Source: Nemertoderma westbladi (lineage: Eukaryota > Animalia > Xenacoelomorpha). From it: a stretch of DNA of 64,000 nucleotides. Position 1 is the first letter of the stretch; each line of letters opens with the position of its first letter. The notes below the pieces were generated by a model. That model made no database searches. It was not told where the DNA came from and saw only the letters and a program-made list of their open reading frames with translations. This document shows, in pieces, positions 16,869-50,855 of this stretch. Position numbers and translations under genes: made by a program. The stretch covers positions 1 through 64,000 of the forward strand of contig JAUCBJ010001693.1 in assembly GCA_032718475.1 (NCBI GenBank), read 5' to 3'.

Positions 16869-16976
16869 ATGGATAATCCGGCGTTTGAGGATAAGAGTCG
16901 AAAAGAAAGAAATGGTGCGCATGTAGAGGAGGTGGAATTCACATGGAAGGGTAAAGTGGTCAAAGGGAATAATGAG
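16869..16976 (+). CDS. ABCG probable first coding exon
   Basis: [16 protein letters not shown]...KGNNE then GAG|GTTAGT, phase 0. No conserved domain, so inferred from position and phase. Confidence 0.65.
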
Positions 16977-19900
16977 GTTAGTACTGTAGTGTCAGTAGTT
17001 ATTTATATATCATTACATCATTCGGGAATATTAGAATTAGTTTATCTAAGGCGATGTGTTCCCTGCAGCAGCTACAGCTGATATCAGTGCAATTTAATTT
17101 AAGGAGGGCGCTAGAGTTGTAAAATAAATAATGTATCCCATAGAGTTGGGCGTTTCCATTCTAACATAATTATAAAGGTAATTAAAAACTGCAATCACCC
17201 TTCATTATGTTTTATAGAAGACACCAATGGATCGAACTGGTGACCTCCGGGTTTGAAGTCTGACGCTCTAACCATTCAGCTAGCGGCTCAGGTAAAAGAT
17301 AGACCTGGAAATACTATCTGATACCTTGTATGTCCGGAATTTACCTCATCATGGCAAACCATCTGTCAATACCATCATATGCTGCCACTGTGCTCAACCC
17401 TACCATACTTGGTCGTCTTTAACCACTCGCTACAATGAAATGATAGGTATATTAACCATGAACCATCACGGCCACAATGATTAATTAAACACTCTAACTA
17501 CTAATTTTGGCAGGACAGTTGTTACACCCATGGAGAAATGCGAGTTGCCCAACAAAAAAAGTTATAATAATATGAAACTTGTAACTGTCCTACCTAAATT
17601 AGTAGTTAAAGTGTAAAATTAATCATTGTGGCCGTGATGGTTCATGGTTAATATACACTACCCTTTCATTGTAGCGAGTGGTTAAAGACGACCAAGTACT
17701 GTAGGGTTGAGCACAGTGGCAGCAGGCCATGAGGAAGTAAATTGCGGACATACAAGGTGTCAGATAGTATTTCCAGGTCTATCTTTTACCTGAGCCGCTA
17801 GCTGAATGGTTAGAGCGTCAGACTTCCAACTCGGAGGTCACCAGTTCGATCCCACCCAGGACGTCATTGCCGAATTTGCGAAAGCTGTGCCCAACAAAAA
17901 GTTCTAATATCTATTTATGAGATTATGCGGCGTAATATATCAATCAATCAATACCACCTTATTATATTAACTCCAGGGATTTTCACACTACAGATCGTAA
18001 TCTTGTACCCAAGGACAGTAAGATAACGGGCCATATTTACTCAACATTGTTGCGTCAAATAAAACCATTACGTTTTAACGTTTACTAACAATAATTAATC
18101 GCGACATGAAAGGCATAAGGATACGAGATGTAGTAATAGTAAAAGAAATAGAAAAAATATAATAGAAAGAGTATCTGTGCATGTGATGCGTCACCAGAGT
18201 TCATTGAGTAACACTTTCATCACGTTATGCAATACCTTATACAGTATATATTAGTACATCACGTTGTAAATCTTAGAGCTGTAGCAGTATTGTAAGGAAG
18301 AGGGAAGCCTAAAGATCGGCTGGTTACTGACACACCCTTAACCTAAACTTGAATATTCACATAGTTGGAATAAAATGAAGCTGATTGGTTGCCAAGTAGG
18401 AAGCATTTCTTCAGCAACCTGTTAAATTGGTAGCAACGGGATGAATGGTACAGCATAACATTCCATACAAACCAAGGGTGGCAGCTTCCGTTATTTTTTA
18501 TTTTGTATACTTATTTTTCATGTTTTGGGTTGCGATTGTTTTATTTATTCTTTTTGTTTCGTACCTTCTGAATTAATTAATACAGTACCAATTTTATGAA
18601 TGTTCTAATAATTTCTTTCATTAAACTTGTCTTTGATTAACTACACTAGAACTAAGATTAGTCAATTTGTGTATGCCTAAATTAAAAGTATGTTCAATAA
18701 TGAAGCTTAAAAGTGGTAAATACGAAATTACTAATAATACGCCTACCGGTACTAATAGACGAATAAATAACCCTACCAACCAGGACCAAGGAGATTCTGC
18801 ACAAGTGCTGATAGGTCAGCGTCAGGTGAGTTTGTTTATTCACGTTATACAGCAATGTGTTGTGGGTTGGGGCCAGGGCAAGGCGACCTTTACTACAGTA
18901 CTAACAGGCCCTGCAGCCCAGACAACTGCAGAATTAGCGTAGTCCTAAAATTCTGCACTGGCCTAGTAGTAAAGGTCGCCTTGGGCCAGGGCTTAAGGCA
19001 CCTTGGGCCAAGGCCAGGGTGTGTGTTTGCGTTTGTTACAATAATTGAAAATCTGTAATTGTATCATCCAGTAATTTGTACTGGATAAATTGCAGTATTC
19101 AGGTATTAGCGACGTAGACAAATGTTCCAGTGGGCAGTTGTGACCGGTGTCCAGTGATTAAGGTCCGGATCATAGGGAGGGAGCCACCTAGCTGTGGACA
19201 AGGTAATTAATTAGGGTCCGGATAATAGGGAGAGACACCCAGCTGTGGACAAGGTAATTAATTAGGGTCCGGATAATAGGGAGAGACACCCAGCTGTGGA
19301 CAAGGTAATTAATTAGGGTCCGGATAATAGGGAGAGACACCCAGCTGTGGACAAGGTAATTAATTAGGGTCCGGATAATAGGGAGAGACACCCAGCTGTG
19401 GACAAGGTAATTAATTAGGGTCCGGATAATAGGGAGAGACACCCAGCTGTGGACAAGGTAATTAATTAGGGTCCGGATCATAGGGAGCCAGCCACCTACT
19501 GTAGCTGTGGACAAGGTAATTAATTAGGGTCCGGATAATAGGGAGCCACCTAGCTGTGGACAAGGTAATTAATTAGGGTCCGGATAATAGGGAGAGACAC
19601 CCAGCTGTGGACAAGGTAATTAATTAGGGTCCGGATCATAGGAGCCAGCCACCTACTGTAGCTGTGGACAAGGTAATTAATTAGGGTCCGGATAATAGGG
19701 AGCCACCTAGCTGTGGACAAGGTAATTAATTAGGTTCCGGATAATAGGGAGCCACCTAGCTGTGGACAAGGTAATTAATTAGGTTCCGGATCATAGGGAG
19801 CCAGCCACCTACTGTAGCTGTGGACAAGGTAATTCATTAGGTTCCGGATCATAGGGAGAGCCACCCACCCAGCTGTGGACAAGGTAATTAATTAGGGTCC

Positions 19901-22900
19901 GGATAATAGGGAGCCACCTAGCTGTGGACAAGGTAATTAATTAGGGTCCGGATAATAGGGAGCCACCTAGCTGTGGACAAGGTAATTAATTAGGGTCCGG
20001 ATAATAGGGAGCCACCTAGCTGTGGATAAGGTAATTAATTAGGGTCCGGATAATAGGGAGCCACCTAGCTGTGGATAAGGTAATTAATTAGGGTCCGGAT
20101 AATAGGGAGCCACCTAGCTGTTAAATGTTTTATCGTCGAACATCTTCCTTATTCTTCTTTATTAATATTATATGGTTTAGTATATTATGTTGCGGAGAGG
20201 TTTTTTTCGCTCTTGTGGTGACAATCACAGCAAAAAACCAATATTGCAATGTATTTTACAGTCTACCTATTCTCGTATCTTTATTTGCACTCACTCACTA
20301 CGATCGTTAGTGTAACAAACCACCCGCATCAACACACTGTAAAATACCACTTTACACAATAACGTGAACGTAAATATTTAACATATTATTTAGATTATTG
20401 CTAATGGACCAGATAGGCAACAAGAAGATCACACTAACAGTAACCAACTTTTTGGAGCCGCATTGAAGGAAACTATCCCAAGTGTAGAATGTGGTGGCTG
20501 CGGGCTACCAGATTGTACACCATGTGCTAATAGGTAAGTAAAGGGTGGTGTGGTACTGACGACCAGATTGTGGGGCGAACCACGAAGTGAGCGAAGCCTT
20601 AGCATATAGGTATCATTAACGAGTTTTCTGTCGTGACCTAATGTACGTATGTAGTCCGTCAAAAGTTTAGAAAGAATCTGAAGTTTGGTAAAACAAATCA
20701 GACTGTCTGTAAGTTGGTACCGGTTTTTGATGAAATTAAATCAAACTTGATAAACAAGTGGTCTGTTATGTCAAAGGTTTAGGAAGATTCAGAAGTTTGG
20801 TCAAAACTCAATAATCAGACAGTCTGTCTGTCGGTACCGGCAGTTTCACACTTTTGATAAAAATAATAAGTCGCGTTGGTGACCATGGACATTTGTATTT
20901 CCCGTTAATAACATTTATTTCTAGGGGACACTTCCCATTAATAACATGTTGTTTTTCAGTGAACAATCAAGAATTGAACGTGGAGTGAATGTGTATTTCA
21001 ACAACATTACAGTTTCTATGATGGGAAGAAAGGTGTTGAATAATGTGTCAGGTCGAGCTTATCCGGGTGAACTATTGGGTGTTATGGGGCCAAGTGGTAA
21101 GTATTTGGGTTTTGGGACAAAGTGGAAAGTATTTGCGTTATGGGACCAAGTGTATTTGAGTTATGGGACCAAGTGGTAAGTATTTGGGTTATGGGACGAA
21201 GCGGTAAGTATTTGAGTTATGGGACCAAGTGGTAAGTATTTGGGTTATGGGACGAAGTGGTAAGTATTTGAGTTATGGGACCAAGTGGTAAGTATTTGGG
21301 TTATGGGACGAAGCGGTAAGTATTTGGGTTATGGGACCAAGTGGTAAGTATTTGGGTTATGGGACGAAGTGGTAAGTATTTGAGTTATGGGACCAAGTGG
21401 TAAGTATTTGGGTTATGGGACGAAGTGGTAAGTATTTGAGTTATGGGACCAAGTGGTAAGTATTTGGGTTATGGGACGAAGCGGTAAGTATTTGGGTTAT
21501 GGGACCAAGTGGTAAGTATTTGGGTTATGGGACCAAGTGGTAAGTATTTGGGTTATGGGACCAAGTAGTGTAGTGGTATATATTTTAGTTATGGGGGGGG
21601 GGGGGGGGGGTGATGATTCCAACCAGGCCCGTAGCCAGGATTTTTTAGTTGTGTAGGCGATGGAATATCAGGGTAGGCAGGCGCAAATGTTAATTTGGAT
21701 AAATTTTATAATAATAATAATTAATATTTAATAATAATTCCAAGTCCAAGGCTCTACCAACTTCGCCACTGCGTTGAAGATAAAATTATCTAAACTAAAG
21801 TAAACTATTATAAAACTAAAACCCAACTGGAAATTAACAACAAGAACACCATAACACCAACAACGGAGTGAATACTAGAAGTCTTGCTACGTGGACCTAA
21901 AAAGGCGGGGGAGAGTTTCAGATAAACCTTTTATTGGTAATACACAACACACTCAACAGGTACCTACACCTACAATAGCTACATCATAAGCAGATTCTAT
22001 TCTAAACAAAATACTGTATATGTACCATTGCCATATTACAGGATGGGTGCAACCTTTGCCCATAAGGCAGTAAGGCAATATTCGCCCGCGAGCAACCTTC
22101 GTCCAATAAGATTGTGTTAGAAACCATTTTAGTTACAAATTCAGGGAAAGGAGCAGGTTACAGATACTGCTTTTTCTAACCAAAACAATAAACGATGTTG
22201 TTACCAATTTCTAGGAAAGGAGCAGGTTACAGAGACGGCTTTTCTCACCAAAACAATCAAAGTTTGCTCTGGGCGAAGTTTGGACGAGGGCGAAGTTAGC
22301 TGCGTACCTTACAGGACCAGTGTTCGGTGACTGTAAGGGTGGAGTAGGCCCTACTGTTACTGTACTGTAGTAGTAGTAACAGTGTTGGCCTACGGAAGGT
22401 ATTATTAAAATGAAAGTAAATCTGAGTGTAATATGTACTGGTGTTTGATTACTTCAAGGCGAATTTTTAAAGAAGACGCATGGAACCAGAAAATGGTGGG
22501 GTGTAAAAATGTAAAATTATTACTAATTAAGTAAAATTTCTCCCAAAAAATTGGGTAGGCGAGACCCACGTTTGGGTAGGCGGCGCCTACCTTCGCCTTA
22601 TACTGGCTACGGCACTGATTCCAACCATAAGTATTTCGGTTATTGGACAGAGTGGTAAGTAATTTTGTCATGGGACCTTTTCAGAAGAATCCTTCACTGC
22701 AATAATCCATATTTTACCAACTTCCCTAGGTGCCGGTAAGACGACTCTACTCAACATACTTGGAGGTCGACACACAGAAATAGATTCGGGTTACTTTCAC
22801 ATTAATGGGGTTCCTTTAACCAAAAGAATGAGACGAAAAATATGCTATGTCCTGCAACATGACGTATTCTTCCCAAATTTAACTTTAAATGATACATTAA

Positions 22901-25900
22901 TGGTAAGATGTGTCTTATTTAATGACGATTCTTAGCGCATAACACGTTACGCAAGGCATAGATTTAGTCTCAAGACACATTAATAAACCGCGACAATGTT
23001 TGGTTACCATTGGTTACCATTATCATTATTATTTATTATTGGTTATCATTATTTTGTTGGTAAAAAGGCATGCTGATTCCTGACAGTGGCCTCCACTTTC
23101 TCGCGAATTTTTTAAGCCTGCCCTGAGGTGATTTTTGGTTCAGAGTAAAACGCGGATCCGGATCAGGATCCGGATTATATCATTTAACATTGTACAAGCA
23201 AAGGCAATGTATACGTTAATGTATAATATGTTGCTTGGCGTGGGTGGCTGAGGCCTTGGCCTTGGTTGGTTAGTTTCCATGGTGATTGTTCTAGAATAAT
23301 AAATTATTTGCCTTGAGAGAACCAAACCAACCCATCAACACAATGTTGAAGCACAGCGTATTGTATCCCAGCCGTCGGGCTGGCGCCTCGTACAACACAA
23401 TGCAAGCAGCTCAATATTGGTTTTAAATTCTCTTGTTAATATTTTCCAACTCAATAAAAAATATTCACTTGAAATGCACTATAGAGGGGTGGGGAGATGT
23501 TGCGGTGCCGCAATAATTAACTTGAATCCACGTTTTACACCCCTTCCCGGATCCAGTAACACTCGGTAATTAACATGAATCCGCGTTTTACACCCCTTCC
23601 CGGATCCAGTAACACTTGGTAATTAACATGAATCCGCGTTTTACACCCCTTCCCGGATCCAGTAACACTTGGTAATTAACATGAATCCGCGTTTTACACC
23701 CCTTCCCGGATCCAGTAACACTTGGTAATTAACATGAATCCGCGTTTTACACCCCTTCCCGGATCCAATAAAACTAAGTAATTAATTTGAATCCGTGTTT
23801 TACACCCCTCCCCGGATCCAGTAACACTTGGTAATTAACATGAATCCGCGTTTTACACCCCTTCCCGGATCCAGTAACACTTGGTAATTAACATGAATCC
23901 GCTTTTTACACCCCTTCCCGGATCCAGTAACACTTGGTACTGTAATTAACATGAATCCGCTTTTTACACCCCTTCCCGGATCCAGTAACACTTGGTAATT
24001 AACATGAATCCGCGTTTTACACCCCTTTCCGGATCCAATAAAACTAAGTAATTAATTTGAATCCGTGTTTTACACCCCTTCCCGGATCCAGTAACAAACT
24101 CTGTATATAATTAACGTAAATTCGGGTTTTACACTCCATTCCGGATTCACAAAATATATGAATCCGCGTTTTACACTTCAATAAGGATTGCGTATTTCAG
24201 AATCCGCATATTACACTCAGTTACGGATTGCATGTAAATCCGGATCCACCTTTTACACTCGCAAATCCGGGTCCTGATCCGTATCCGGATCCTGAATCAA
24301 GATCCTGAATCGGGATCCGCGTTTTACACCTACCCGTGATTTTTGTGCAAAAATATAGCTTTTATTTTTGGATTCGGGAGTATAAGCTATAAGGACATTT
24401 GTGTAAAATCATGTAAAGGAAATTTACTTAAAGAAAAGTTACCAAAGGCAAAAGGGCACTGATGGTGCCACCAACTTTTATCGATCATAATACTATGAGA
24501 TAGAACTGATAAATAGCTCTCACCAGATACCAAATATATTAAACTTTGTCGAACCAATAAAGACTTATAAAGTTTTTAGTTAAGAGTACATAAATTAAAA
24601 CATTAATTTCTCTTTTCATTCCCTCTCTTAGTATACGGCTCATTTACGTCTATCAGATTCCCTCAAAGTATCTGAGAAAGAAGCGATTGTTAACGGTATC
24701 ATCGATAGCTTGGATCTGGGTCTCTGTAGAAACACAAGTAAGTTGTTAACTGTATCATCGATAGCTTGGATCTGGGTCTCTGTAGAAACACAAGTAAGTT
24801 GTTAACTGTATCATCGATAGCTTGGATCTGGATCTCTGTAGAAACACAAGTAAGTTGTTAACTGTATCATCGATAGCTTGGATCTGGGTCTCTGTAGAAA
24901 CACAAGTAAGTTGTTAACTGTATCATCGATAGCTTGGATCTGGGTCTCTGTAGAAACACAAGTAAGTTGTTAACTGTATCATCGATAGCTTGGATCTGGG
25001 TCTCTGTAGAAACACAAGTAAGTTGTTAACTGTATCATCGATAGCTTGGATCTGGATCTCTGTAGAAACACAAGTAAGTTGTTAACTGTATCATCGATAG
25101 CTTGGATCTGGGTCTCTGTAGAAACACAAGTAAGTTGTTAACTGTATCATCGATAGCTTGGATCTGGGCCTCTGTAGAAACACAAGTAAGTTGTTAACGG
25201 TATCATCGATAGCTTGGATCTGGGTCTCTGTAGAAACACAAGTAAGTTGTTAACTGTATCATCGATAGCTTGGATCTGGGTCTCTGTAGAAACACAAGTA
25301 AGTTGTTAACTGTATCATCGATAGCTTGGATCTGGGTCTCTGTAGAAACACAAGTAAGTTGTTAACTGTATCATCGATAGCTTGGATCTGGGTCTCTGTA
25401 GAAACACAAGTAAGTTGTTAACTGTATCATCGATAGCTTGGATCTGGGTCTCTGTAGAAACACAAGTAAGTTGTTAACTGTATCATCGATAGCTTGGATC
25501 TGGGTCTCTGTAGAAACACAAGTAAGTTGTTAACTGTATCATCGATAACTTGGATCTGGGTCTCTGTAGAAACACAAGTAAGTTGTTAACTGTATCATCG
25601 ATAGCTTGGACCTGGGTCTCTGTAGAAACACAAGTAAGTTGTTAACTGTATCATCGATAGCTTGGATCTGGGTCTCTGTAGAAACACAAGTAAGTTGTTA
25701 ACTGTATCATCGATAACTTGGATCTGGGTCTCTGTAGAAACACAAGTAAGTTGTTAACTGTATCATCGATAGCTTGGATCTGGGTCTTTGTAGAAACACA
25801 AGTAAGTTGTTAACTGTATCATCGATAACTTGGATCTGGGTCTCTGTAGAAACACAAGTAAGTTGTTAACGGTATCATCGATAGCTTGGATCTGGGTCTC

Positions 25901-28900
25901 TGTAGAAACAAACAAGTAAGTTGTTAACTGTATTATCGATAGCTTGGATCTGGGTCTCTGTAGAAACACAAGTAAGTTGTTAACTGTATCATTGATAGCT
26001 TGGATCTGGGTCTCTGTAGAAACACAAGTAAGTTGTTAACTGTATCATCGATAACTTGGATCTGGGTCTCTGTAGAAACACAAGTAAGTTGTTAACTGTA
26101 TCATCGATAGCTTGGGTCTGGGTCTCAGTAGAAACACAAGTAAGTTGTTAACTGTACCATCGATAGCTTGGATCTGGGCCTCTGTAGAAACACAAGTAAG
26201 TTGTTAACTGTATCATCGATAGCTTGGATCTGGGTCTCTGTAGAAACACAAGTAAGTTGTTAACTGTATCATCGATAGCTTGGATCAATCTGGGCTTCTA
26301 AAGAAACACAAGTAAGTTGTTAACTGTATTATCGATAGCTTGGATATGGGTCTCTGTAGAAACACAAGTAAGTTGTTAACTGTATCATCGATAGCTTGGA
26401 TCAATCTGGACTTCTAAAGAAACACAAGTAAGTTGTTAACTGTATCATCGATAGCTTGGATCTGGGTCTCTGTAGAAACACAAGTAAGTTGTTAACTGTA
26501 TCATCGATAGCTTGGATCTGGGTCTCTGTAGAAACACAAGTAAGTTGTTAACTGTATCATCGATAGCTTGGATTTGGGTCTCTGTAGAAACAAACAAGTA
26601 AGTTGTTAACTGTATCATCGATAGCTTGGATCTGGGTCTCTATAGAAACACAAGTAAGTTGTTAACTGTATCATCGATAGCTTGGATCTGGGTCTCTGTA
26701 GAAACACAAGTAAGTTGTTAACTGTATCATCGATAGCTTGGATCTGGGTCTCTATAGAAACACAAGTAAGTTGTTAACTGTATCATCGATAGCTTGGATC
26801 TGGGTCTCTATAGAAACACAAGTAAGTTGTTAACTGTATCATCGATAGCTTGGATCTGGGTCTCTATAGAAACACAAGTAAGTTGTTAACTGTATCATCG
26901 ATAGCTTGGATCTGGGTCTCTGTAGAAACACAAGTAAGTTGTTAACTGTATCATCGATAGCTTGGATCTGGGTCTCTATAGAAACACAAGTAAGTTGTTA
27001 ACGGTATCATCGATAGCTTGGATCTGGGTCTCTGTAGAAACACAAGTAAGTTGTTAACTGTATCATCGATAACTTGGATCTGGGTCTCTGTAGAAACACA
27101 AGTAAGTTGTTAACTGTATCATCGATAGCTTGGATCTGGGTCTCTATAGAAACACAAGTAAGTTGTTAACTGTATCATCGATAGCTTGGATCTGGGTCTC
27201 TATAGAAACACAAGTAAGTTGTTAACTGTATCATCGATAGCTTGGATCTGGGTCTCTGTAGAAACACAAGTAAGTTGTTAACTGTATCATCGATAGCTTG
27301 GATCTGGGCCTCTGTAGAAACACAAGTAAGTTGTTAACTGTATCATCGATAGCTTGGATCTGGGTCTCTATAGAAACACAAGTAAGTTGTTAACTGTATC
27401 ATTGATAGCTTGGATCTGGGTCTCTGTAGAAACACAAGTAAGTTGTTAACTGTATCATCGATAGCTTGGATTTGGGTCTCTGTATAAACACAAGTAAGTT
27501 GTTAACGGTATCATCGATAGCTTGGATTTGGGCCTCTGTAGAAACACAAGTAAGTTGTTAACTGTATCATCGATAGCTTGGATCTGGGCCTCTGTAGAAA
27601 CACAAGTAAGTTGTTAACTGTATCATCGATAGCTTGGATCTGGGCCTCTGTAGAAACACAAGTAAGTTGTTAACTGTATCATCGATAGCTTGGATCTGGG
27701 TCTCTATAGAAACACAAGTAAGTTGTTAACTGTATCATCGATAGCTTGGATCTGGGTCTCTGTAGAAACACAAGTAAGTTGTTAACTGTATCATCGATAG
27801 CTTGGATCTGGGTCTCTATAGAAACACAAGTAAGTTGTTAACTGTATCATCGATAGCTTGGGTCTGGGTCTCTATAGAAACACAAGTAAGTTGTTAACTG
27901 TATCATCGATAGCTTGGATCTGGGCCTCTGTAGAAACACAAGTAAGTTGTTAACTGTATCATCGATAGCTTGGATCTGGGTCTCTGTAGAAACACAAGTA
28001 AGTTGTTAACTGTATCATCGATAGCTTGGATCTGGGCCTCTGTAGAAACACAAGTAAGTTGTTAACTGTATCATCGATAGCTTGGATCTGGGTCTCTGTA
28101 GAAACACAAGTAAGTTGTTAACTGTATCATCGATAGCTTGGATCTGGGTCTCTATAGAAACACAAGTAAGTTGTTAACTGTATCATCGATAGCTTGGATC
28201 TGGGTCTCTGTAGAAACACAAGTAAGTTGTTAACTGTATCATCGATAGCTTGGATCTGGGCCTCTGTAGAAACACAAGTAAGTTGTTAACTGTATCATCG
28301 ATAGCTTGGATCTGGGTCTCTGTAGAAACACAAGTAAGTTGTTAACTGTATCATCGATAGCTTGGATCTGGGTCTCTGTAGAAACACAAGTAAGTTGTTA
28401 ACTGTATCATCGATAGCTTGGATCTGGGTCTCTGTAGAAACACAAGTAAGTTGTTAACTGTATCATCGATAGCTTGGATCTGGGTCTCTGTAGAAACACA
28501 AGTAAGTTGTTAACTGTATCATCGATAGCTTGGATCTGGGTCTCTGTAGAAACACAAGTAAGTTGTTAACTGTATCATCGATAGCTTGGATCTGGGCCTC
28601 TGTAGAAACACAAGTAAGTTGTTAACTGTATCATCGATAGCTTGGATCTGGGTCTCTGTAGAAACACAAGTAAGTTGTTAACTGTATCATCGATAGCTTG
28701 GATCTGGGCCTCTGTAGAAACACAAGTAAGTTGTTAACTGTATCATCGATAGCTTGGATCTGGGCCTCTATAGAAACACAAGTAAGTTGTTAACTGTATC
28801 ATCGATAGCTTGGATCTGGGTCTCTGTAGAAACACAAGTAAGTTGTTAACTGTATCATCGATAGCTTGGATCTGGGCCTCTGTAGAAACACAAGTAAGTT

Positions 28901-31900
28901 GTTAACTGTATCATCGATAGCTTGGATCTGGGTCTCTGTAGAAACACAAGTAAGTTGTTAACTGTATCATCGATAGCTTGGATCTGGGCCTCTGTAGAAA
29001 TTCAAGTAAGTTGTTAACTGTATCATCGATAGCTTGGATCTTGGACTCTGTAGAAACACAAGTAAGTTGTTAACTGTATCATCGATAGCTTGGATCTGGG
29101 TCTCTGTAGAAACACATGTAAGTTGTTAACTGTATCATCGATAGCTTGGATCTGGGTCTCTGTAGAAACAAACACAAGTAAGTTGTTAACTGTATCATCG
29201 ATAGCTTGGATTTGGGTCTCTGTAGAAACACAAGTAAGTTGTTAACTGTATCATCAATAGCTTGGATCTGGGTCTCTGTAGAAACACAAGTAAGTTGTTA
29301 ACTGTACCATCGATAGCTTGGATCTGGGACTCTGTAGAAACTCAAATAAGTTGTTAACTGTATCATCGATAGCTTGGATCTGGGTCTCTGTAGAAACACA
29401 AGTAAGTTGTTAACTGTATCATCGATAGCTTGGATCTGGGTCTCTGTAGAAACACAAGTAAGTTGTTAACTGTATCATCGATAGCTTGGATTTGGGTCTC
29501 TGTAGAAACACAAGTAAGTTGTTAACTGTATCATCGATAGCTTGGATCTGGGTCTCTGTAGAAACACAAGTAAGTTGTTAACTGTATCATCGATAGCTTG
29601 GATCTGGGTCTCTGTAGAAACACATGTAAGTTGTTAACTGTATCATCGATAGCTTGGATCTGGGTCTCTGTAGAAACAAACACAAGTAAGTTGTTAACTG
29701 TATCATCGATAGCTTGGATCTGGGTCTCTGTAGAAACACAAGTAAGTTGTTAACTGTATCATCGATAGCTTGGATCTGGGTCTCTGTAGAAACACAAGTA
29801 AGTTGTTAACGGTATCATCGATAGCTTGGATCTGGGTCTCTGTAGAAACACAAGTAAGTTGTTAACTGTATCATCGATAGCTTGGATCTGGGTCTCTGTA
29901 GAAACACAAGTAAGTTGTTAACTGTATCATCGATAGCTTGGATCTGGGTCTCTGTAGAAACACAAGTAAGTTGTTAACTGTATCATCGATAGCTTGGATC
30001 TGGGTCTCTGTAGAAACACAAGTAAGTTGTTAACTGTACCATCGATAACTTGGATCTGGGACTCTGTAGAAACACAAGTAAGTTGTTAACTGTATCATCG
30101 ATAGCTTGGATCTGGGTCTCTGTAGAAACACAAGTAAGTTGTTAACTGTATCATCGATAGCTTGGATCTGGGTCTCTGTAGAAACACAAGTAAGTTGTTA
30201 ACTGTATCATCGATAGCTTGGATCTGGGACTCTGTAGAAACACAAGTAAGTTGTTAACTGTATCATCGATAGCTTGGATCTGGGTCTCTGTAGAAACACA
30301 AGTAAGTTGTTAACTGTATCATCGATAGCTTGGATCTGGGTCTCTGTAGAAACAAACACAAGTAAGTTGTTAACTGTATCATCGATAGCTTGGATTTGGG
30401 TCTCTGTAGAAACACAAGTAAGTTGTTAACTGTATCATCGATAGCTTGGATCTGGGTCTCTGTAGAAACACAAGTAAGTTGTTAACTGTATCATCGATAG
30501 CTTGGATCTGGGTCTCTGTAGAAACACAAGTAAGTTGTTAACTGTATCATCGATAGCTTGGATCTGGGTCTCTGTAGAAACAAACACAAGTAAGTTGTTA
30601 ACTGTATCATCGATAGCTTGGATCTGGGCCTCTGTAGAAACACAAGTAAGTTGTTAACTGTATCATCGATAGCTTGGATCTGGGCCTCTGTAGAAACACA
30701 AGTAAGTTGTTAACTGTATCATCGATAGCTTGGATCTGGGTCTCTATAGAAACACAAGTAAGTTGTTAACTGTATCATCGATAGCTTGGATCTGGGTCTC
30801 TGTAGAAACAAACACAAGTAAGTTGTTAACTGTATCATCGATAGCTTGGATCTGGGCCTCTGTAGAAACACAAGTAAGTTGTTAACTGTATCATCGATAG
30901 CTTGGATCTGGGCCTCTGTAGAAACACAAGTAAGTTGTTAACTGTATCATCGATAGCTTGGATCTGGGTCTCTATAGAAACACAAGTAAGTTGTTAACTG
31001 TATCATCGATAGCTTGGATCTGGGTCTCTGTAGAAACACAAGTAAGTTGTTAACTGTATCATCGATAGCTTGGATCTGGGTCTCTATAGAAACAAACACA
31101 AGTAAGTTGTTAACTGTATCATCGATAGCTTGGATCTGGGTCTCTGTAGAAACACAAGTAAGTTGTTAACTGTATCATCGATAGCTTGGATCTGGGTCTC
31201 TGTAGAAACAAACACAAGTAAGTTGTTAACTGTATCATCGATAGCTTGGATTTGGGTCTCTGTAGAAACACAAGTAAGTTGTTAACTGTATCATCGATAG
31301 CTTGGATCTGGGTCTCTGTAGAAACACAAGTAAGTTGTTAACTGTATCATCGATAGCTTGGATCTGGGTCTCTGTAGAAACACATGTAAGTTGTTAACTG
31401 TATCATCGATAGCTTGGATCTGGGTCTCTGTAGAAACACAAGTAAGTTGTTAACTGTATCATCGATAGCTTGGATCTGGGTCTCTGTAGAAACACAAGTA
31501 AGTTGTTAACTGTATCATTGATAGCTTGGATCTGGGACTCTGTAGAAACACAAGTAAGTTGTTAACTGTATCATCGATAGCTTGGATCTGGGTCTCTGTA
31601 GAAACACAAGTAAGTTGTTAACTGTATCATCGATAGCTTGGACCTGGGTCTCTGTAGAAACACAAGTAAGTTGTTAACTGTATCATCGATAGCTTGGATC
31701 TGGGTCTCTGTAGAAACACAAGTAAGTTGTTAACTGTATCATCGATAGCTTGGATCTGGGTCTCTGTAGAAACACAAGTAAGTTGTTAACTGTATCATCG
31801 ATAGCTTGGATCTGGGTCTCTGTAGAAACACAAGTAAGTTGTTAACTGTATTATCGATAGCTTGGATCTGGGTCTCTGTAGAAACACAAGTAAGTTTTTA

Positions 31901-34900
31901 ACTGTATCATCGATAGCTTGGATCTGGGCCTCTGTAGAAACACAAGTAAGTTGTTAACTGTATCATCGATAGCTTGGATCTGGGTCTCTGTAGAAACACA
32001 AGTAAGTTGTTAACTGTATCATCGATAGCTTGGATCTGGGTCTCTGTAGAAACAAACACAAGTAAGTTGTTAACTGTATCATCGATAGCTTGGATCTGGG
32101 CCTCTGTAGAAACACAAGTAAGTTGTTAACTGTATCATCGATAGCTTGGATCTGGGTCTCTAGAAACACAAGTAAGTTGTTAACTGTATCATCGATAGCT
32201 TGGATCTGGGTCTCTGTAGAAACACAAGTAAGTTGTTAACTGTATCATCGATAGCTTGGATCTGGGCCTCTGTAGAAACACAAGTAAGTTGTTAACTGTA
32301 TCATCGATAACTTGGATCTGGGTCTCTGTAGAAACACAAGTAAGTTGTTAACTGTATCATCGATAGCTTGGATCTGGGTCTCTGTAGAAACACAAGTAAG
32401 TTGTTAACTGTATCATCGATAGCTTGGATCTGGGTCTCTGTAGAAACACAAGTAAGTTGTCAACGGTATCATCGATAGCTTGGATCTGGGTCTCTGTAGA
32501 AACACAAGTAAGTTGTTAACTGTATCATCGATAGCTCGGATCGTGTACTTCTCAAACAGACAGAGGAACAAATATCACCAGCAATGAAATTAACAATGTT
32601 TTTTATTTCAGTTATCGGTAATGTGATGGTTAGGGGACTTTCCGGAGGCGAAAAGAAAAGAGCAAATATAGCCAGCGAGTTGCTAACCAACCCTTCCTTG
32701 CTGCTTCTCGATGTGAGTTGGTTGGACAGTATATATTTATTATTAGAAGAGTATTAATTATTAATTAATACGATTTTTGAATTTCATTACATTTTCGTAT
32801 AATTTCAAAGGTTAATCAGGAAATCAGACCAGTTGAGTACCTCCCTCGACTTTTCCTGCAGTTAGTAGTAGTAGATAATCTCAGACAATTATTTAGTTTA
32901 TATATTAGGACTATTATTCGATAAAAAAAAAGTAAGCGCAAAACACCGATTTTTTCACTCATTTTCAATTTAGCGAAATTCAACTATTCTGTCCGAGTGG
33001 TTGAGTTTTACACGAGTTGGCAGTTTTTTGGAACGAGGAAAGCTAGTGTTAAAATGCCAACGAGTGGAAAACTCAACACACGAGGGCAGAATATCTCAAT
33101 TTTGCTGAAGAAAATGAGTGGAAAATAGTGTTTTCCGTTACATTTTTATATCGAATATATTGTTTTATTTGAAAAAAAGTATCACCAGCGTTATCACTGT
33201 GTCCTTGTCCTTGGATTTCTAAGGCATAAGTTGCCGGTGCTAGGAATTACCACAAAACACCCCAAAAGATACCAAAAGACCCAAAATAGTTCAAAAATAC
33301 TTAAAAAAACAGGTACCTGATCCGTTCCCTTACCAGCTTACAGTTAAGGTATTCCTGAACTGTTAGGTATTTTGCGGGGTAGGTATTTTGGTGTATTCTG
33401 GGGTATTTTAGGTAATTCGTAGGATCAAAATCTTCCGAAAAAAACGTTGCGTCAGCCTTCTCATTAAAATTGTGGATCACCTCCAGATCGTCAAGAAGGA
33501 TGTTATTACTGTATTAGGCCGATGGCCTACCATAGGTCCGGTACTTCTCGCTGCCATTCTGCTGGATGACCCTGGTCTAATTCAAATACCGGTATTATAA
33601 TAGTTGTACAGTAAACACAGTACCGGTACAAATGGTTTATTGACATATATCTAAGTCTGGTAATTCCTTTTTACCTTTTTACACATTGCAGTCTACACCC
33701 TCAGCCTGTCTGTACCTGTCATTATTCCGTACCGGTCCCGGTATAAACAATTTGGTTTCATTTTTTTATGTGTGAGCTGTATGATGAATTACATTTAAAA
33801 TAACTATTGACATACTTGTTGCAATAACTATTGACATACTTGTTGCAATAACTATTGACATACTTGTTGCAATAACTATTGACATACTTGTTGCAATAAC
33901 TATTTACATACTTGTTGCAATAACTATTGACATACTTGTTGCAATAACTATTGACATACTTGTTGCAATAACTATTTACATACTTGTTGCAATAACTATT
34001 TACATACTTGTTGCAATAACTATTTACATACTTGTTGCAATAACTATTTACATACTTGTTGCAATAACTATTTACATACTTGTTGCAATAACTATTTACA
34101 TACTTGTTGCAATAACTGTTGACATACTTGTTGCAATAACTATTTACATACTTGTTGCAATAACTATTTACATACTTGTTGTAATAACTATTTACATACT
34201 TGTTGCAATAACTATTTACATACTTGTTGCAATAACTATTTACATACTTGTTGCAATAACTATTTACATACTTGTTGCAATAACTATTTACATACTTGTT
34301 GCAATAACTATTGACATACTTGTTGCAATAACTATTTACATACTTGTTGCAATAACTATTGACATACTTGTTGCAATAACTATTGACATACTTGTTGCAA
34401 TAACTATTGACATACTTGTTGCAATAACTATTTACATACTTGTTGCAATAACTATTGACATACTTGTTGCAATAACTATTGACATACTTGTTGCAATAAC
34501 TATTTACATACTTGTTGCAATAACTATTTACATACTTGTTGCAATAACTATTTACATACTTGTTGCAATAACTATTTACATACTTGTTGCAATAACTATT
34601 TACATACTTGTTGCAATAACTATTGACATACTTGTTGCAATAACTATTTACATACTTGTTGCAATAACTATTGACATACTTGTTGCAATAACTATTGACA
34701 TACTTGTTGCAATAACTATTGGCATACTTGTTGCAATAACTATTGACATACTTGTTGCAATAACTATTGACATGCTTGTTGCAATAACTATTGACATACT
34801 TGTTGCAATAACTATTTACATACTTGTTGCAATAACTATTGACATACTTGTTGCAATAACTATTGACATACTTGTTGCAATAACTATTTACATACTTGTT

Positions 34901-37900
34901 GCAATAACTATTTACATACTTGTTGCAATAACTATTTACATACTTGTTGCAATAACTATTTACATACTTGTTGCAATAACTATTTACATACTTGTTGCAA
35001 TAACTATTTACATACTTGTTGCAATAACTATTTACATACTTGTTGCAATAACTATTGACATACTTGTTGCAATAACTATTTACATACTTGTTGCAATAAC
35101 TATTGACATACTTGTTGCAATAACTATTGACATACTTGTTGCAATAACTATTGACATACTTGTTACAATAACTATTGACATACTTGTTGCAATAACTATT
35201 GACATACTTGTTGCAATAACTATTGACATACTTGTTGCAATAACTATTTACATACTTGTTGCAATAACTATTGACATACTTGTTGCAATAACTATTGACA
35301 TACTTGTTGCAATAACTATTGACATACTTGTTGCAATAACTATTTACATACTTGTTGCAATAACTATTTACATACTTGTTGCAATAACTATTTACATACT
35401 TGTTGCAATAACTATTTACATACTTGTTGCAATAACTATTTACATACTTGTTGCAATAACTATTGACATACTTGTTGCAATAACTATTGACATACTTGTT
35501 GCAATAACTATTGACATACTTGTTGCAATAACTATTTACATACTTGTTGCAATAACTATTTACATACTTGTTGCAATAACTATTGACATACTTGTTGCAA
35601 TAACTATTTACATACTTGTTGCAATAACTATTTACATACTTGTTGCAATAACTATTTACATACTTGTTGCATTAACTATTTACATACTTGTTGCAATAAC
35701 TATTGACATACTTGTTGCAATAACTATTTACATACTTGTTGCAATAACTATTTACATACTTGTTGCTATAACTATTTACATACTTGTTGCAATAACTATT
35801 GACATACTTGTTGCAATAACTATTTACATACTTGTTGCAATAACTATTGACATACTTGTTGCAATAACTATTGACATACTTGTTGCAATAACTATTGACA
35901 TACTTGTTGCAATAACTATTGACATACTTGTTGCAATAACTATTGACATACTTGTTGCAATAACTATTTACATACTTGTTGCAATAACTATTGACATACT
36001 TGTTGCAATAACTATTGACATACTTGTTGCAATAACTATTTACATACTTGTTGCAATAACTATTTACATACTTGTTGCAATAACTATTGACATACTTGTT
36101 GCAATAACTATTGACATACTTGTTGCAATAACTATTGACATACTTGTTGCAATAACTATTGACATACTTGTTGCAATAACTATTTACATACTTGTTGCAA
36201 TAACTATTTACATACTTGTTGCAATAACTATTGACATACTTGTTGCAATAACTATTTACATACTTGTTGCAATAACTATTTACATACTTGTTGCAATAAC
36301 TATTTACATACTTGTTGCAATAACTATTTACATACTTGTTGCAATAACTATTGACATACTTGTTGCAATAACTATTGACATACTTGTTGCAATAACTATT
36401 GACATACTTGTTGCAATAACTATTTACATACTTGTTGCAATAACTATTTACATACTTGTTGCAATAACTATTGACATACTTGTTGCAATAACTATTTTCA
36501 TACTTGTTGCAATAACTATTTACATACTTGTTGCAATAACTATTTACATACTTGTTGCAATAACTATTTACATACTTGTTGCAATAACTATTTACATACT
36601 TGTTGCAATAACTATTTACATACTTGTTGCAATAACTATTTACATACTTGTTGCAATAACTATTTACATACTTGTTGCAATAACTATTTACAGTACTTGT
36701 TGCATACTTTGACAGCTGTGTTGCATACCTATTGTCATACTTGTTGCACTAACGTACGTTACATGACTTGTGTGCAATAACTATTTAGCCTACTTGTTGC
36801 AATCACTATTTACATACTTGTTGCAATAACTGTTTACATACTTGTGTGTAAAGTAGCACTTTACAGTGTGATGATCCGAGTGGCTTTGTTACACGAACGA
36901 ACGTTAGTGAGTGAGTGAAAATAAAGCCACGAGGATCAGAATACTGTAAAGTACTTTGCAACAAGTATGTATGTAGTTTTATTCCAAAATTGTAACATTA
37001 CGAAATGATTGTGTATATATTATAAGTGATAGAAACTGTACAAATTATATTAGTTGCTGTATAAATAAATGTAAAAATGACATAAATTATGTTATAAATA
37101 AGTTAGCTTATATTTATGGTGGCGTTTGGAGCCATGTTATAATAATATACCTAGGCCCTACCGGTTATTAATAGCTATACCCCGCCTACCGGTAGGTAAT
37201 GTAGTAGACCTATCTGGCTGTCACCCAAATTTCCACTTATTGTCCAATGACAATGAAATGAGTGGTATCCAATGACGGCGTTAAATGTCCCCTTAGTGCA
37301 CATTTACTTAACGTTGTCATGGGTTACCACGTAAACAATAACACGAAATACAATACTAAATGTACAGGCCAATACAATGCTGTAATATCCTCTAAAGTTG
37401 TAAAGTGCTAAATAACAACTCGATGTTAATACTAACGGCGTTGAGTAATGTTACAATTTTGGAATAAAAATATTTTTTAAAAATTTGTTTAAAAATATAT
37501 TTTTTTTTAATTTTCAAAAAATTAGTTAAAAAATTACTTTTTTAAACTAATTTTCCAAAAAATAGTTAAAAAATAGACTTTTTTAAACTAATTTTCGGGA
37601 AATTTGTGAAAAAATTAAGATTTAGAAAGAGCCCTTTTCAAATAAAAAGGCTCTTTTTCTCACTAATAATTTTAAAATTGAGTTAATTTATCTAACTTTT
37701 TTTCACTAATTTCCAGAAAATTAGTTAAAAAAGTCTTTTTTAACTAATTTTAGCTTACTGTACAGCTAGCTCAAAACAATATTCCGTCTGTACAGTAGTA
37801 AAGGTAGTACCGGTACTTGTACACGGTAACACAGTGGGCCTAGTACTGTACAATACTGCAGTACAATTTGAATACTGATATTGGTGATAGTGGATAGACC

Positions 37901-40900
37901 CGTCTCATCCTCAGATCCTACAGAATAGCTGTTAGCAGTACCGGACCTGGTGGTAGGCCTAAATATTGACGATCTGTACCCTCTCGAAAATTTGAATGAG
38001 CAAGATGACGCGATGTTTTCGGAGCTACTGACTCAGAAATCTTAGGATGATATATATCTGAATGCGTGGGCGGCATTAATAGAGTATTATCGTCGTAAGT
38101 AAACAACGATAACGCTGCTGATATTTTTTTCAAATAAAATAATATATTCGATATAAAAACATTACGGAAAACACTATTTTCCACTCATTTTCTTTAGCAA
38201 TATTCAGTTATTCTAACCTCGTGTGGACAGAATCGTTGTATTTCGCTAAATTGAAAATGAGTGAAAAAAGCGGTGTTTTCCGCTTACTTTTTTTTTTATC
38301 GAAAAATAGTCCTATATACTGACACCTCATTATACCAAGCGTCGCTTTGGTTGATCAACCTGTTCAACAACTTGTGCTATGGCAACAATTATAGCGATTT
38401 TATCCAATAGGAACCGACCTCTGGTTTAGACTCATCCACTGCCCTTCAACTTATGACCACCCTCAAGCGGTTCACACGCGAATCGGGGAAAACTGTTATA
38501 ACCAGTATCCATCAGCCTTCAAGTCAAATATTCGAGGTTGGTAGTTTTTCTATGTAACCCTTATTTACCCTTCAATTTTACACTTAAATATTTGAGTTGG
38601 GTAGTTTATACTATTTGGAGGCAGACACGTTCAAGTGTTATGGAGACATCAGCGAACGAGGATTATCCGTTTGTGTTGACTTTGATTTGTGTGTCCGTTT
38701 GTCTAATTGAGTAAGTCCAGTGGTAAGGCAACCCCGACAGTATAGTAAACCAGTAACAAACTGTATTAATGTATATCAAGGCGTCTTTTAATACTTTATT
38801 AAAGGACGCCTTGTCCTTTAATATAGGCCAGGTTCCACCTTGGTGTAGTGGTTGTATTGAATTCACATCTCCCGTAGGTCGTGGGTTCGATCCTCACATG
38901 GGCCAGGGCAGTTTTCGTTTCGGCACGAATGCTTTAAAGGGACCAGCCAGGCGCATCTCTCTGCCTTGCATCCTTAACCATTTAACGCCCATTGCACCTT
39001 AAATGGAACATGGTATATAGAGAGATATGGGCGGTTGCTGCTTTGAAAGAAACGTGATTTTTTTTTATATGAGTAAATTACATGTCAATTTCAAAACTGG
39101 AAATTGCCTGTTGAAAAGTGGTATTTTTGAAAAATTTAGGTGTCTTTTTGAATCTTAAAATTATGAGATGTGGGGTAGTCAAAAATTTTCCAAAATTAGC
39201 TTTCCTGTTGGCCTGAATGCTATGTTAATCTTTTTTTATCAGTTTCAGCTTTCAAATTGTTATTTAACAATGTTTAATACAGCAGTAAAGTGAAATGTTC
39301 CATTTAAGGTGCGTTGGGACTTCAAACTCTTTTTTTTACATTTTTTGAAAATTGCTTCATTTACTAACAGTTATAATTACTGTATAATTATGTTGCTATT
39401 ACGCATCATTTTATCTCGTTTAGCTGTCATACAGTCCACATTCTAGACCTGACTCGAATAAATTGCATTTCCTTGACCTGATTTTGATAAACTTTGTAAA
39501 AATGTGTGACACTCCTCGGGGTGGGCCACGATCTTACGCTCCCGATCTCAGTGAGGCCATGTCCTGTCCAGGTTTGCTGGGTGGTGGGGACAGGAAGAGC
39601 GGAGGTTGATGTCCTCTCGGGTTACTCTGCAGATGTGGACAGGGAGGTTAGGGCAGAATCTAGGTGTGTGTTGGCTGGTTGGTGGCCAAGGATGAGGGAA
39701 ACAAGGGGTCCAGCCTGGCAAACGGCGTCTACATTTGCAGCTGGTGCATGGTCAGTTGCCTTGTGCAGGCCTAGACCCCCCATAGCGGTTGGAAGGCATG
39801 CCTTGTTGTATGACCAGTCAGAGAGCGAACCTCCGACCAGGTCAGAAAAGGAGTCACGCATGATGAGGTCGAATTCCAAGGAATACTGCACTACCTGAGA
39901 TGGAGGGCAACAGCGCAGGGCGTAGATGACCTTGTGGTAAGCAGGAGCGGAGGAGGGCAGTTTACATCTGTGAGTCCTGCAGGTCTGGCAGGCATGCAAT
40001 TATGGCACGGACCTTTATTGATCCGTCCCATAACAGTATAAGGATCAGCATCAGTATATCAGAACAGCAGTACTTTTGTGCACAATCTACTTATTGATAC
40101 AAAAGTCGATAACTTGATAGGCCTAGTCTATGTAGTTTATATACTATACCTATAGGACTATAAACGGAACTCGATAAACCGAAAGTAAATCTGACAGAAC
40201 ATCCCGGTTTACATCATCTGATAAATGGCTACTGGAACCTATCTTAACAACAGTAACTTTTTTCCAGTTAGTTTATATCAGTAAGTACAGTATATCAGTG
40301 TTACACCTGCTTATCCATACTGTAGCTGAATAGCCTAACTAATTGCAGTAGCTTCTGAAAAATCAATGCCAGGGTCCTATATAATTTATGTAAGAACTTA
40401 TAAAGTTCTGAAAAGAGAATGCCTTTCCAACATTTAGAAAAAAATATGTGCTCTAATGCCCAACGCACCTTAAATGGAACATAGCTGTAACTTCTGAACA
40501 AACACTTTTTTTGCAAAAGTGTAAATGTAAAGTTTTTTTATTGGGCCATTTTGAGTTAGTTTCCAAAATATGAAACATTTTTGACATGGGGAAGTAGGTG
40601 TGGGCGTTAAACGGATAAGTGGTAGCTAAATGAGTACTGGAGTTTCCTCTGGGGAGTAAAGTTCTGGGGGGGGGGGGCCGCACTGGAAATAAGTCGTCAG
40701 ACTTTGTGCGTAATACCTGGCCTAGCGGCCGAAGAAAATTTACTTTACTTTACTTTATTTTGTCCAATACCATAACAGCTGTAATACTGGGCTGGCAGTG
40801 TGTGATCTAAATGTTTCAGTTCAGTACATTTTATTTGTTCCAGATGTTCGATAAACTGTTGTTGCTTAGCAATGGACAAGTGGCTTACTATGGACCCGGT

Positions 40901-41826: not shown

Positions 41827-41910
41827 GTAAGTCACTTCTCCAGACAATCTCTGCAAAACGTAACACCTTCTTATCTTTATTTTAATTACCAATGAATAAC
41901 AAATTATATA

Positions 41911-42816
41911 CACCATGACCCGTAATATAGTGTCATTTTCTGATGACACGGACCCCCCCCCCCCCATATTTTTCTACAAATCTTTATCATATTGCTTGAA
42001 ATTAGAAACACAACTAGTTCAACTCACCGTCGTTGTTACAATGAAGCTGGAATTTTCGATTTCGCCTTTAAATTTTTTTATAAGCGTTTTAAAAAAGTGT
42101 CTTTTGCGAAATCGCACCCTCTGTATCATTGCCATTCTTCACTTTAGTCGTAATTTTTGTCACATCAATAGAAAGCTTGCGTTGCAAGGATTTCAAATAT
42201 GTAACAATATCTGAATTTCATTGAGAAACAGCTGAGATATAGGCGTTCGAAGATTGCAAGAATTATTGTTCGCTGCAGGCCATTTATTCTATTTAATAAA
42301 TACACAATATTCTAGAACAATTTGTTTATGTATGATTAGCTAGGCAATATAGATATTGTATAGGCATACCGCTGTTGCCTACCAACTCATAAAATAAATA
42401 ACACATTCTAGAATTTTGTGTATTTATTAAATAGAATAAATGGCCTCCAGCGAACAATAATTCTTGCAATCTTTGAATGCCTATTTCTCAGCTGTTTCTC
42501 AATGAAATTCAGATATTGTTACATATTTCGAATCCTTGCAACGCAAGCTTTCTATTGATGTGAAAAAATTACGACTAAAGTGAAGAATGGCAATGATACA
42601 GAGGGTGCGATTTCGCAAAAGACACTTTTTTAAAACGCTTATAAATAAAATTTAAAGGCGAAATCGAAAATTCCGGCTTCATGGTAACAACCACGGTGAG
42701 TTGAACTAGTTGTGTTTCAAATTTAATATGATAAAGATTTGTAGAAAAATCTGGGGGGGGGGGGGGGGGGGGGGTCCGTGTCATCAGAAAATGTCACTAT
42801 ATTACGGGTCTTGGTG
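41911..42816. mobile_element. Foldback MITE with ~400-bp arms, TA-flanked (Tc1/mariner-type)
   Basis: ta|caccatgacccgtaatatagtg ... cactatattacgggtcttggtg|ta; the arms are near-perfect reverse complements. Confidence 0.85.
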
Positions 42817-42867
42817 TAATTCTTCAATAATATAGTGTTATTCTATAAAATAATAAATTCTCTCATA

Positions 42868-45559: not shown

Positions 45560-45860
45560 CTGGATATAGGGAATATGGAATGAAAATAATCCCGTTAACA
45601 GAATAAATACGCCTTTAATTTTTACAGGTATTGAAAATCACCCACCTAAATTATGTTGTATATTACATCCAATCAAGAACCTTTAATATAATTTAACCAA
45701 TGGACAACAGATTCTAGAATTTAATCTTCATATTATATAAATAACAAAAACGTCGATAAAACTTGTCATACGCAAAACACTAATGATTTAAGTTGCACAA
45801 AGTTTTATTAGGATAAATAAATAATAGAAACAGTACTGGTGATTAGGTTCCATTGCTGTG

Positions 45861-50703: not shown

Positions 50704-50855
50704 GATTCTAGAATTTAATCTTCATATTATATAAATAACAAAAACGTCGATAAAACTTGTCATACGCAAAACACTAATGATTAAAGTTGCAACAAATTTT
50801 TATTAGGATAAATAAATAATAGAAACAGTACTGGTGATTAGGTTCCAGTGCTGTG

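What the first reader, a model, noticed from the sequence alone, without database searches (positions are those of the whole stretch)
24688..32541. An intron made almost wholly of ~140 copies of its own exon end and 5' splice site
Seen: the 56-bp unit is the last 50 nt of exon 6 plus GTAAGT, so ~140 identical ACAA|GTAAGT donors fill nearly all of a 7.87-kb intron. Only the first is productive: donor 2 shifts the frame, and donors 3 onward include an in-frame TAA. Each unit also has a branch-like TTAAC, a tctctgtAG acceptor-like site and an 8-nt AAACACAA before the next donor. Inference: either strict first-donor selection (exon definition or co-transcriptional), or stepwise recursive/micro-exon splicing. 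It could also be an intron-gain-by-tandem-duplication intermediate or an NMD-tuned expression dial.
Basis: partly seen in the sequence, partly recalled or inferred. Interest (0 to 1): 0.8.

Follow-up and report, generated by a model that had tools for sequence, protein, structure and literature searches.

The report
Splice donor repeated 138 times
In an animal ABC-transporter gene, a 56-base piece holding the end of an exon and its splice signal is repeated about 140 times and fills the next intron, yet the one spliced RNA assembly found uses the first signal, so it is likely a large but ordinary example of a repeat type known from human and lancelet genes.

Summary
A 56-bp minisatellite (24687-32542, 139.5 copies) starts inside exon 24632-24737 of an ABCG-type transporter gene and fills 99% of a 7,874-nt intron. 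It supplies 138 GTAAGT donors, and only the first keeps the frame. The unit-to-unit junction is present in DNA contigs of two samples, so the array is real; its length is unverified. A run whose contigs are spliced joins donor 1 directly to the next exon in one unbranched contig. Exclusive use is not shown, and that animal's array genotype is unknown. The intron holds no AG|GT, so recursive splicing fails its defining feature; Rogers-type intron gain fails too. New here: a second, older donor array (28 bp) sits two exons upstream in the same gene and is also spliced at its first donor. The architecture is known from human F7, CBS, IFI6, LMNB2, PDGF, ABCA7 (up to about 427 units) and amphioxus 'mirages'. 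This scan already noted the pattern on other DNA (16 findings, at least 12 genomes). Verdict: new member of a known kind, low interest.

The parts
24687..32542 (+). Array A: 56-bp minisatellite, 139.5 copies; first unit is the last 51 nt of the exon plus the donor
   Evidence: unit junction in DNA contigs
24632..24737 (+). Coding exon of the ABC nucleotide-binding domain whose 3' end seeds array A
   Evidence: open frame; both splice junctions seen as loose ends of run X4 contigs
24738..24743 (+). Authentic 5' splice site (donor 1), the only one of 138 that keeps the frame
   Evidence: used in X4 contig 32
24794..32513 (+). 137 downstream pseudo-donors; each would give a premature stop
32543..32611 (+). 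Non-repeat intron tail with a branch-like TTAAC, T-rich tract and the authentic AG
   Evidence: sequence; tail beyond 35 nt is not a significant copy of the unit, p=0.35
32612..32712 (+). Next exon (ABC signature and Walker B region)
   Evidence: Pfam PF00005 E=7e-6; its start is the loose end of X4 contig 32
22730..22902 (+). Preceding exon (Walker A to Q-loop)
   Evidence: Pfam PF00005 E=5e-7; 63% identical to two bivalve ABC-2 type proteins
20960..21096 (+). Exon whose 3' end seeds array B
   Evidence: X4 contig 25 covers it with spliced joints on both sides
21073..21566 (+). Array B: 28-bp exon-end plus donor minisatellite, 17.8 copies, 15 GTAAG donors including the authentic one; the donors of copies 2 and 3 are dead
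   Evidence: raised depth in DNA contigs and first-donor use in X4
22628..22677 (+). About two decayed copies of the 28-bp unit, cut off from array B by about 1.06 kb of other DNA, 52 nt before the acceptor
   Evidence: local score 68 against a maximum of 39 in 500 shuffles
16869..41826 (+). Host gene, ABCG/ABC-2 type half transporter, 5' half only (10 modelled coding exons, 429 aa open)
   Evidence: 46% over 370 aa to P0001; no membrane-domain exons found in the window

Best explanation
This is a minisatellite whose first unit spans an exon end and its 5' splice site; the assembled RNA uses the first donor, and the other 137 donors are likely silent passengers of a repeat that probably grew by ordinary slippage and unequal exchange. 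Shown: the array, the reading-frame outcome of every donor, and first-donor use in one spliced assembly. Inferred, step by step: (1) a short intron already existed, since the GTAAG and the acceptor tail do not derive from flanking exon sequence; (2) a local duplication of the exon end plus donor seeded the repeat, perhaps through an 8-nt match between the exon and the intron start; (3) the first donor wins by position, being the first one transcribed after the upstream acceptor (exon 106 nt, against 162, 218, 274 nt and more for later donors), as in the 5'-to-3' scanning shown for F7; (4) any leak to donor 2 or later gives a premature stop and would probably be cleared by nonsense-mediated decay, so the array is tolerated. 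Array B looks like a later stage of the same life cycle: more diverged, frayed at both ends and split by an insertion.
For: One unbranched X4 contig (depth 1471) covers 24650-24737 and continues into the start of exon 32612; the bin across the donor equals exactly that one contig's share (447.8 = 1471.3 x 7/23). The same holds at array B (contig 25, depth 909; 156.7 = 908.7 x 5/29). X4 behaves as RNA: a 426-nt GT..AG skip, and 0.28 of words held against 0.30 expected for exons alone. Donor 1 has no advantage in sequence or local fold: unpaired probability 0.37 against 0.40 +/- 0.12, with 55 of 137 other donors lower, so position is the remaining difference. Splice-signal positions are not significantly better conserved than the rest of the unit (3 of 13 against 21 of 43 variable, p=0.09). 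The gene is repeat-prone: five arrays take 12,945 of 24,958 bases. Precedents: PMC1557585, PMC3087553, PMC3902484.
Against: Only one spliced run was found, it is on record as 'DNA?', it is held as contigs that drop rare variants, and whether that animal carries the arrays is unknown. Stop-bearing isoforms would be under-represented in any case. The trend to fewer variants at splice-signal positions (p=0.09) is weak but points the other way. In IFI6 and CBS the two nearest pseudo-donors are used (PMC1557585, introduction), and in ABCA7 one-unit retention is seen (PMC5954066, passages), so some leak here is plausible. In array B the two nearest pseudo-donors are dead, which could reflect selection against leak rather than neutrality, although frayed array edges are expected anyway.
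Confidence: 0.8

Rival explanations
1. Leaky array with a regulatory or dosage effect: a share of transcripts uses donor 2 or 3, or skips the next exon, is destroyed by nonsense-mediated decay, and array length tunes transporter level.
For: All 137 non-first donors give a premature stop. In ABCA7, longer arrays go with lower expression and one-unit retention (PMC5954066, passages). Dead proximal donors in array B suggest that leak can matter.
Against: No significant conservation of splice signals in the unit. The X4 contig crosses the junction unbranched. In F7, adding or removing units did not change donor choice (PMC1557585, part 3). Extra distal copies add no nearer competitor, so length gives no obvious dial.
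Confidence: 0.1
2. Stepwise removal: recursive splicing or successive 8-nt micro-exons along the array.
For: Each unit has a branch-like TTAAC, a TAG and a donor; three or six micro-exons would keep the frame open.
Against: 0 AGGT and 0 AGGC in the intron, and none of the four AGs of the unit is followed by GT. The unit AG is G-rich upstream and 48 nt from its own donor, with the branch-like A only 12 nt from it. One, two, four or five micro-exons give a stop. The spliced contig has no added bases at the junction.
Confidence: 0.03
3. The intron itself arose from the tandem duplication (intron gain caught in the act).
For: 99.1% of the intron is copies of the unit, and 51 of 56 unit bases match the exon.
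Against: The model needs a duplicated exonic segment with AGGT that supplies both splice sites (PMC4974935, passages). The unit has none; GTAAG is not the start of the next exon; the acceptor lies in a tail that is not a significant copy of the unit (p=0.35). Intron position in related species could not be checked.
Confidence: 0.04
4. Assembly artefact or strongly inflated copy number.
For: The array length cannot be read from short-read contigs; one DNA sample may be the source of the assembly.
Against: Contigs cross the unit-to-unit junction in three DNA runs of two samples, with summed depth of 10^4-10^5 (about 10^3 at the lowest bins) against about 30-170 on the unique exon (this is not a copy number). 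The 138 units carry recurring variants, and 84 of 138 differ from the consensus.
Confidence: 0.03

Closest known systems
Human F7 intron 7 37-bp VNTR (Borensztajn et al. 2006, PMC1557585; parts 1 and 3 of 6 read: abstract, introduction, part of the results)
   Same: First unit spans the exon-intron boundary; the authentic donor is followed by identical pseudo-donors; the most upstream one is used.
   Different: F7 has 5-9 units with 4 exonic bases each. Here there are about 140 units with 42-51 exonic bases each, filling 99% of the intron.
Human IFI6 (6-16) intron 2, CBS intron 13, LMNB2 and PDGF intron 4 minisatellites (as summarised in the introduction of PMC1557585; primary papers not read)
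   Same: Repeated donor behind the authentic one, 10-26 copies.
   Different: IFI6 and CBS also use the two nearest pseudo-donors.
Amphioxus 'mirage' minisatellites in Adh3, globins, TnC and PGBD5 (PMC3087553, 7 passages; PMC3902484, 1 passage)
   Same: Invertebrate tandem copies of exon-intron boundaries that hold real exon sequence, occur in several genes, show concerted evolution with frayed edges, and are reported not to disturb splicing.
   Different: The globin arrays described have 3-6 units; this one has about 140. Copy numbers for Adh3 were not in the passages read.
Human ABCA7 intron 18 25-bp VNTR (De Roeck et al. 2018, PMC5954066; 12 passages)
   Same: Donor at the start of the units and comparable or larger scale: 298 to 10,678 bp, about 12 to 427 units.
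   Different: The ABCA7 unit begins at the GT and holds no exon sequence; length-linked effects on splicing and expression are reported there and untested here.

Membership tests
Exon-intron boundary minisatellite (F7 type, 'mirage') | Head-to-tail array of a short unit | tested here: met
   56 bp x 139.5, 96% matches
Exon-intron boundary minisatellite (F7 type, 'mirage') | First unit spans a real exon-intron boundary | tested here: met
   Array starts at 24687, exon ends at 24737; junction seen in a spliced contig
Exon-intron boundary minisatellite (F7 type, 'mirage') | Downstream units repeat the donor sequence | tested here: met
   138 of 139 positions read GTAAGT
Exon-intron boundary minisatellite (F7 type, 'mirage') | Normal mRNA is made from the most upstream donor | tested here: met
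   X4 contig 32 and contig 25; one run only, array genotype of that animal unknown, exclusivity not shown
Exon-intron boundary minisatellite (F7 type, 'mirage') | Copy number varies between alleles (VNTR) | not testable with these tools
   Only short-read contigs are held; summed depth is no copy number
Recursive splicing (ratchet points) | Acceptor directly followed by a donor (AG|GT) inside the intron | tested here: not met
   0 AGGT, 0 AGGC in 24738-32611; definition from the search listing of PMC8605326
Recursive splicing (ratchet points) | Saw-tooth nascent coverage and internal lariats | not testable with these tools
   No raw RNA reads offered
Intron gain by tandem duplication (Rogers model) | Duplicated exonic segment with AGGT supplies both splice sites | tested here: not met
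   No AGGT in the unit; acceptor in a non-repeat tail; definition from PMC4974935
Intron gain by tandem duplication (Rogers model) | Intron absent in related species | not testable with these tools
   No genome held; no eukaryote locus collection available
Regulated unproductive splicing (AS-NMD) | Alternative isoform carries a premature stop | tested here: met
   137 of 137 non-first donors, by translation
Regulated unproductive splicing (AS-NMD) | The isoform is really made, regulated and conserved | tested here: inconclusive
   Unbranched first-donor contig; signal conservation p=0.09 and 0.18

The most novel reading that the evidence does not exclude
In this animal, exon-end plus donor duplications are a favoured way of growing introns: two introns of one gene were built from under about 100 nt to kilobases this way, the array stays in exchange with the coding exon (46 of 136 units would change or frameshift the protein if copied into it), and the nearest rival donors are pruned by selection as arrays age. 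The 138-donor intron would then be one of the largest natural tests of positional donor choice with exon-containing units, and allele length might set transporter dosage through decay of leaky transcripts.
Probability: 0.12. Interest if true: 0.55.

Novelty: new member of a known kind. Interest (0 to 1): 0.22.

Why it matters
As it stands it is a large natural example of a known rule: with many equal donors in a row, the first is used. It extends that rule to an invertebrate intron in which 137 rivals share the authentic donor's sequence and local fold, and it gives two arrays of different age in one gene. That makes it a handy substrate for testing co-transcriptional versus exon-definition choice, but the question was already made testable by F7 minigenes and by ABCA7 alleles of similar size. 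It would matter more only if leak, length-linked dosage or a genome-wide excess of donor-anchored arrays were shown.

Tried and rejected
No whole genome is held, so the genome-wide count of donor-anchored arrays could not be made. No RNA holder is listed by record; run X4 was recognised as spliced only by laying it. X4 has no cover at 24754-24790 or 21123-21200; contigs show presence only, so this is not counted as evidence against use of later donors. Summed contig depth was rejected as a copy number: X2 and X3 are one sample and differ about 25-fold over the unit. My first gene model had an exon at 18650-18825; the spliced contig joins the exon ending at 16976 directly to 20394, so it was dropped and the donor tests were rerun with the same result. 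Structure masking of the pseudo-donors was rejected. A decayed full last unit was suggested by eye but is not significant (p=0.35). Variants shared by neighbouring units were not significantly clustered by my measure (p=0.29). Two of the five arrays in the gene being donor-anchored is not strong evidence of a special mechanism: given array A, the chance that one of the other four seeds covers a donor is about 0.12 under random placement. A four-term paper search gave 0 hits. No earlier notes exist for this genome. Supplements of the papers were not opened; they may hold copy numbers for the lancelet arrays. I make no claim that 138 donors is a record.
Full report
Observation. Cutting at the donors gives 139 positions, of which 138 read GTAAGT and 134 have the exact ACAA|GTAAGT context. 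Of the 138 units between them, 125 are 56 nt, 10 are 60, 2 are 58 and 1 is 54. Fifty-four equal the consensus, and there are 30 variant types. The intron is 7,874 nt, 99.1% array, with a 69-nt non-repeat tail.

Host gene. The flanking exons match Pfam ABC_tran (E=5e-7 and 7e-6) and a later exon matches ABC2_membrane_7 weakly; of 6 exons scanned, 2 had no hit and 1 had only a weak STAS match. The preceding exon is 63% identical to two bivalve proteins with ABC-2 domains, the 2 hits among 58 candidates. Ten modelled coding exons give 429 open codons, 46% identical over 370 aa to P0001. The membrane-domain exons were not found in the window. I call the gene ABCG-type from this domain order, which is established knowledge. 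The organism was not identified.

Reading frame. Donor 1 keeps the frame, donor 2 stops in the next exon, and the other 136 of 138 donors stop inside the retained array.

Is the array real? Six runs were listed, four holding the stretch, none on record as RNA. I laid those four. In three DNA-like runs of two samples, contigs cross the unit-to-unit junction, and the summed depth over the unit is mostly 10^4-10^5 against about 30-170 on the unique exon. This shows a multi-copy tandem array, not its length. One sample may be the assembly's own source.

Which donor is used? Run X4 is labelled 'DNA?' but behaves as RNA. It skips a 426-nt GT..AG intron, its loose ends equal the neighbouring exons, and it holds 0.28 of the query words where exons alone predict 0.30. 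One X4 contig, depth 1471, covers 24650-24737 without a difference and continues into the first bases of exon 32612. The depth bin across the donor equals that single contig's share. So first-donor splicing is shown. Exclusivity is not shown: contigs drop rare variants, stop-bearing isoforms would be depleted, and I cannot tell whether this animal carries the array.

A second array. The 28-bp array at 21073-21566 (17.8 copies) is the end of exon 20960-21096 plus its donor, with 15 GTAAG sites of which only the first keeps the frame. The donors of copies 2 and 3 are dead. About two decayed units lie at 22628-22677, 52 nt before the acceptor (score 68, best of 500 shuffles 39), so this array probably once filled its intron and was later split by about 1 kb of other DNA. 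X4 again splices at the first donor, and the DNA runs show raised depth over the units. The gene is repeat-prone in general: five arrays take 12,945 of 24,958 bases. Under random seeding a second donor-anchored array has a chance of about 0.12, so the pair is suggestive only.

Mechanism. Donor 1 has the same sequence as its rivals and the same predicted accessibility (0.37 against 0.40 +/- 0.12; 55 of 137 lower), which leaves position. It is the first donor after the upstream acceptor and closes a 106-nt exon; later donors would give 162, 218, 274 nt and more. For human F7, minigenes showed that identical downstream donors are functional but unused, even when strengthened up to a consensus value of 91, and that adding or removing units changes nothing (PMC1557585, parts 1 and 3 of 6). 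I infer the same positional rule here; whether it is co-transcriptional commitment or exon definition is untested. The seed was probably a duplication of the exon end plus donor of an intron that already existed. An 8-nt stretch occurs both 51 nt before the donor and just after it, and the exon differs from the array consensus at the next base, shared by only 6 of 138 units. This fits a microhomology join but does not prove it.

Rivals. Recursive splicing needs an acceptor directly followed by a donor (search listing of PMC8605326; its outline and short abstract). The intron has 0 AGGT and 0 AGGC, and none of the unit's four AGs is followed by GT. The 8-nt micro-exon route would add bases; one, two, four or five copies give stops, while three or six keep the frame. 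The unit AG has 6 G in positions -20 to -4 against 0-2 at the 10 modelled acceptors, though its pyrimidine count (10) is within their range (9-16). Intron gain by the Rogers model needs a duplicated exonic AGGT (PMC4974935, passages), which is absent, and the acceptor tail is not a significant copy of the unit. A decay-based dial remains possible: every later donor gives a stop, and ABCA7 shows length-linked effects (PMC5954066, passages). Against it, splice-signal positions are not significantly protected (3 of 13 against 21 of 43 variable, p=0.09; donor alone 1 of 6 against 23 of 50, p=0.18).

What is known. The introduction of PMC1557585 lists IFI6 (25 pseudo-sites, two nearest used), CBS (15-20 units, two used), LMNB2 and PDGF (authentic donor only) beside F7. 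Amphioxus 'mirages' are tandem copies of exon-intron boundaries in Adh3, globin, TnC and PGBD5 genes, reported not to disturb splicing and to fray at their edges (PMC3087553; PMC3902484). The search term 'mirage' was recalled, prompted by the lancelet remark in earlier notes. The ABCA7 array reaches about 427 units and 10.7 kb, though its unit holds no exon sequence. Repeats at exon-intron boundaries were also surveyed in human segmental duplications (PMC2812944, passages). Supplements were not opened. Earlier notes of this scan list 16 findings in at least 12 genomes with these words; they are unchecked leads, and my F7-type reading was recorded before I saw them.

Verdict. A real, large, new member of a known kind. 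What stands out is the amount of coding exon in each unit, the near-complete filling of the intron and the second, older array in the same gene. None of this needs a new mechanism. Interest 0.22.

Noticed in passing
window 19157-20121: A 49-53-bp array in the first long intron carries 18 AGGTAA junctions, i.e. the AG|GT that array A lacks, but with no pyrimidine tract by eye. The X4 contig removes this intron whole in the mature RNA.
   Followed up: partly
window 18650-18825: A 176-nt AG..GT segment with one open frame that the spliced contig skips: a chance pseudo-exon or a cassette exon.
   Followed up: partly
window 24622-24691: DNA run X1 holds a second version of the exon (3 differences, unlike upstream sequence, depth 49 against 29); one of the differences, silent at 24661, is also in X2. 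A second allele or a paralogue that may also run into the array.
   Followed up: no
window 11972-14375, 23514-24096, 33799-36845, 47254-47606: Further minisatellites (29 bp x 83, 53 bp x 11, 24 bp x 127, 30 bp x 12) that are not anchored at modelled exon ends. The flank of the 53-bp array has very high summed depth in DNA runs, so it likely belongs to a dispersed family.
   Followed up: partly
window 41827-64000: No membrane-domain exon of the transporter was found in the 22 kb after the last modelled donor; the rest of the gene lies beyond the window or is lost.
   Followed up: partly
window 47235-50450 +: 1071-aa ORF that looks by eye like a non-LTR retrotransposon (endonuclease plus reverse transcriptase); it sits in the second copy of a duplicated block (45710-46276 and 50704-51258, 95% alike).
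   Followed up: no
window 51319-52591 and 62356-63628: 1,273-bp direct repeats, 99.7% identical, around a 1384-aa ORF at 54835-58989: likely a young LTR element.
   Followed up: no
window 41909-42818 and 17229-17852: Long inverted repeats (90% and 81% self-complementary) inside introns of the gene; the second includes a tRNA-like stretch by eye.
   Followed up: no
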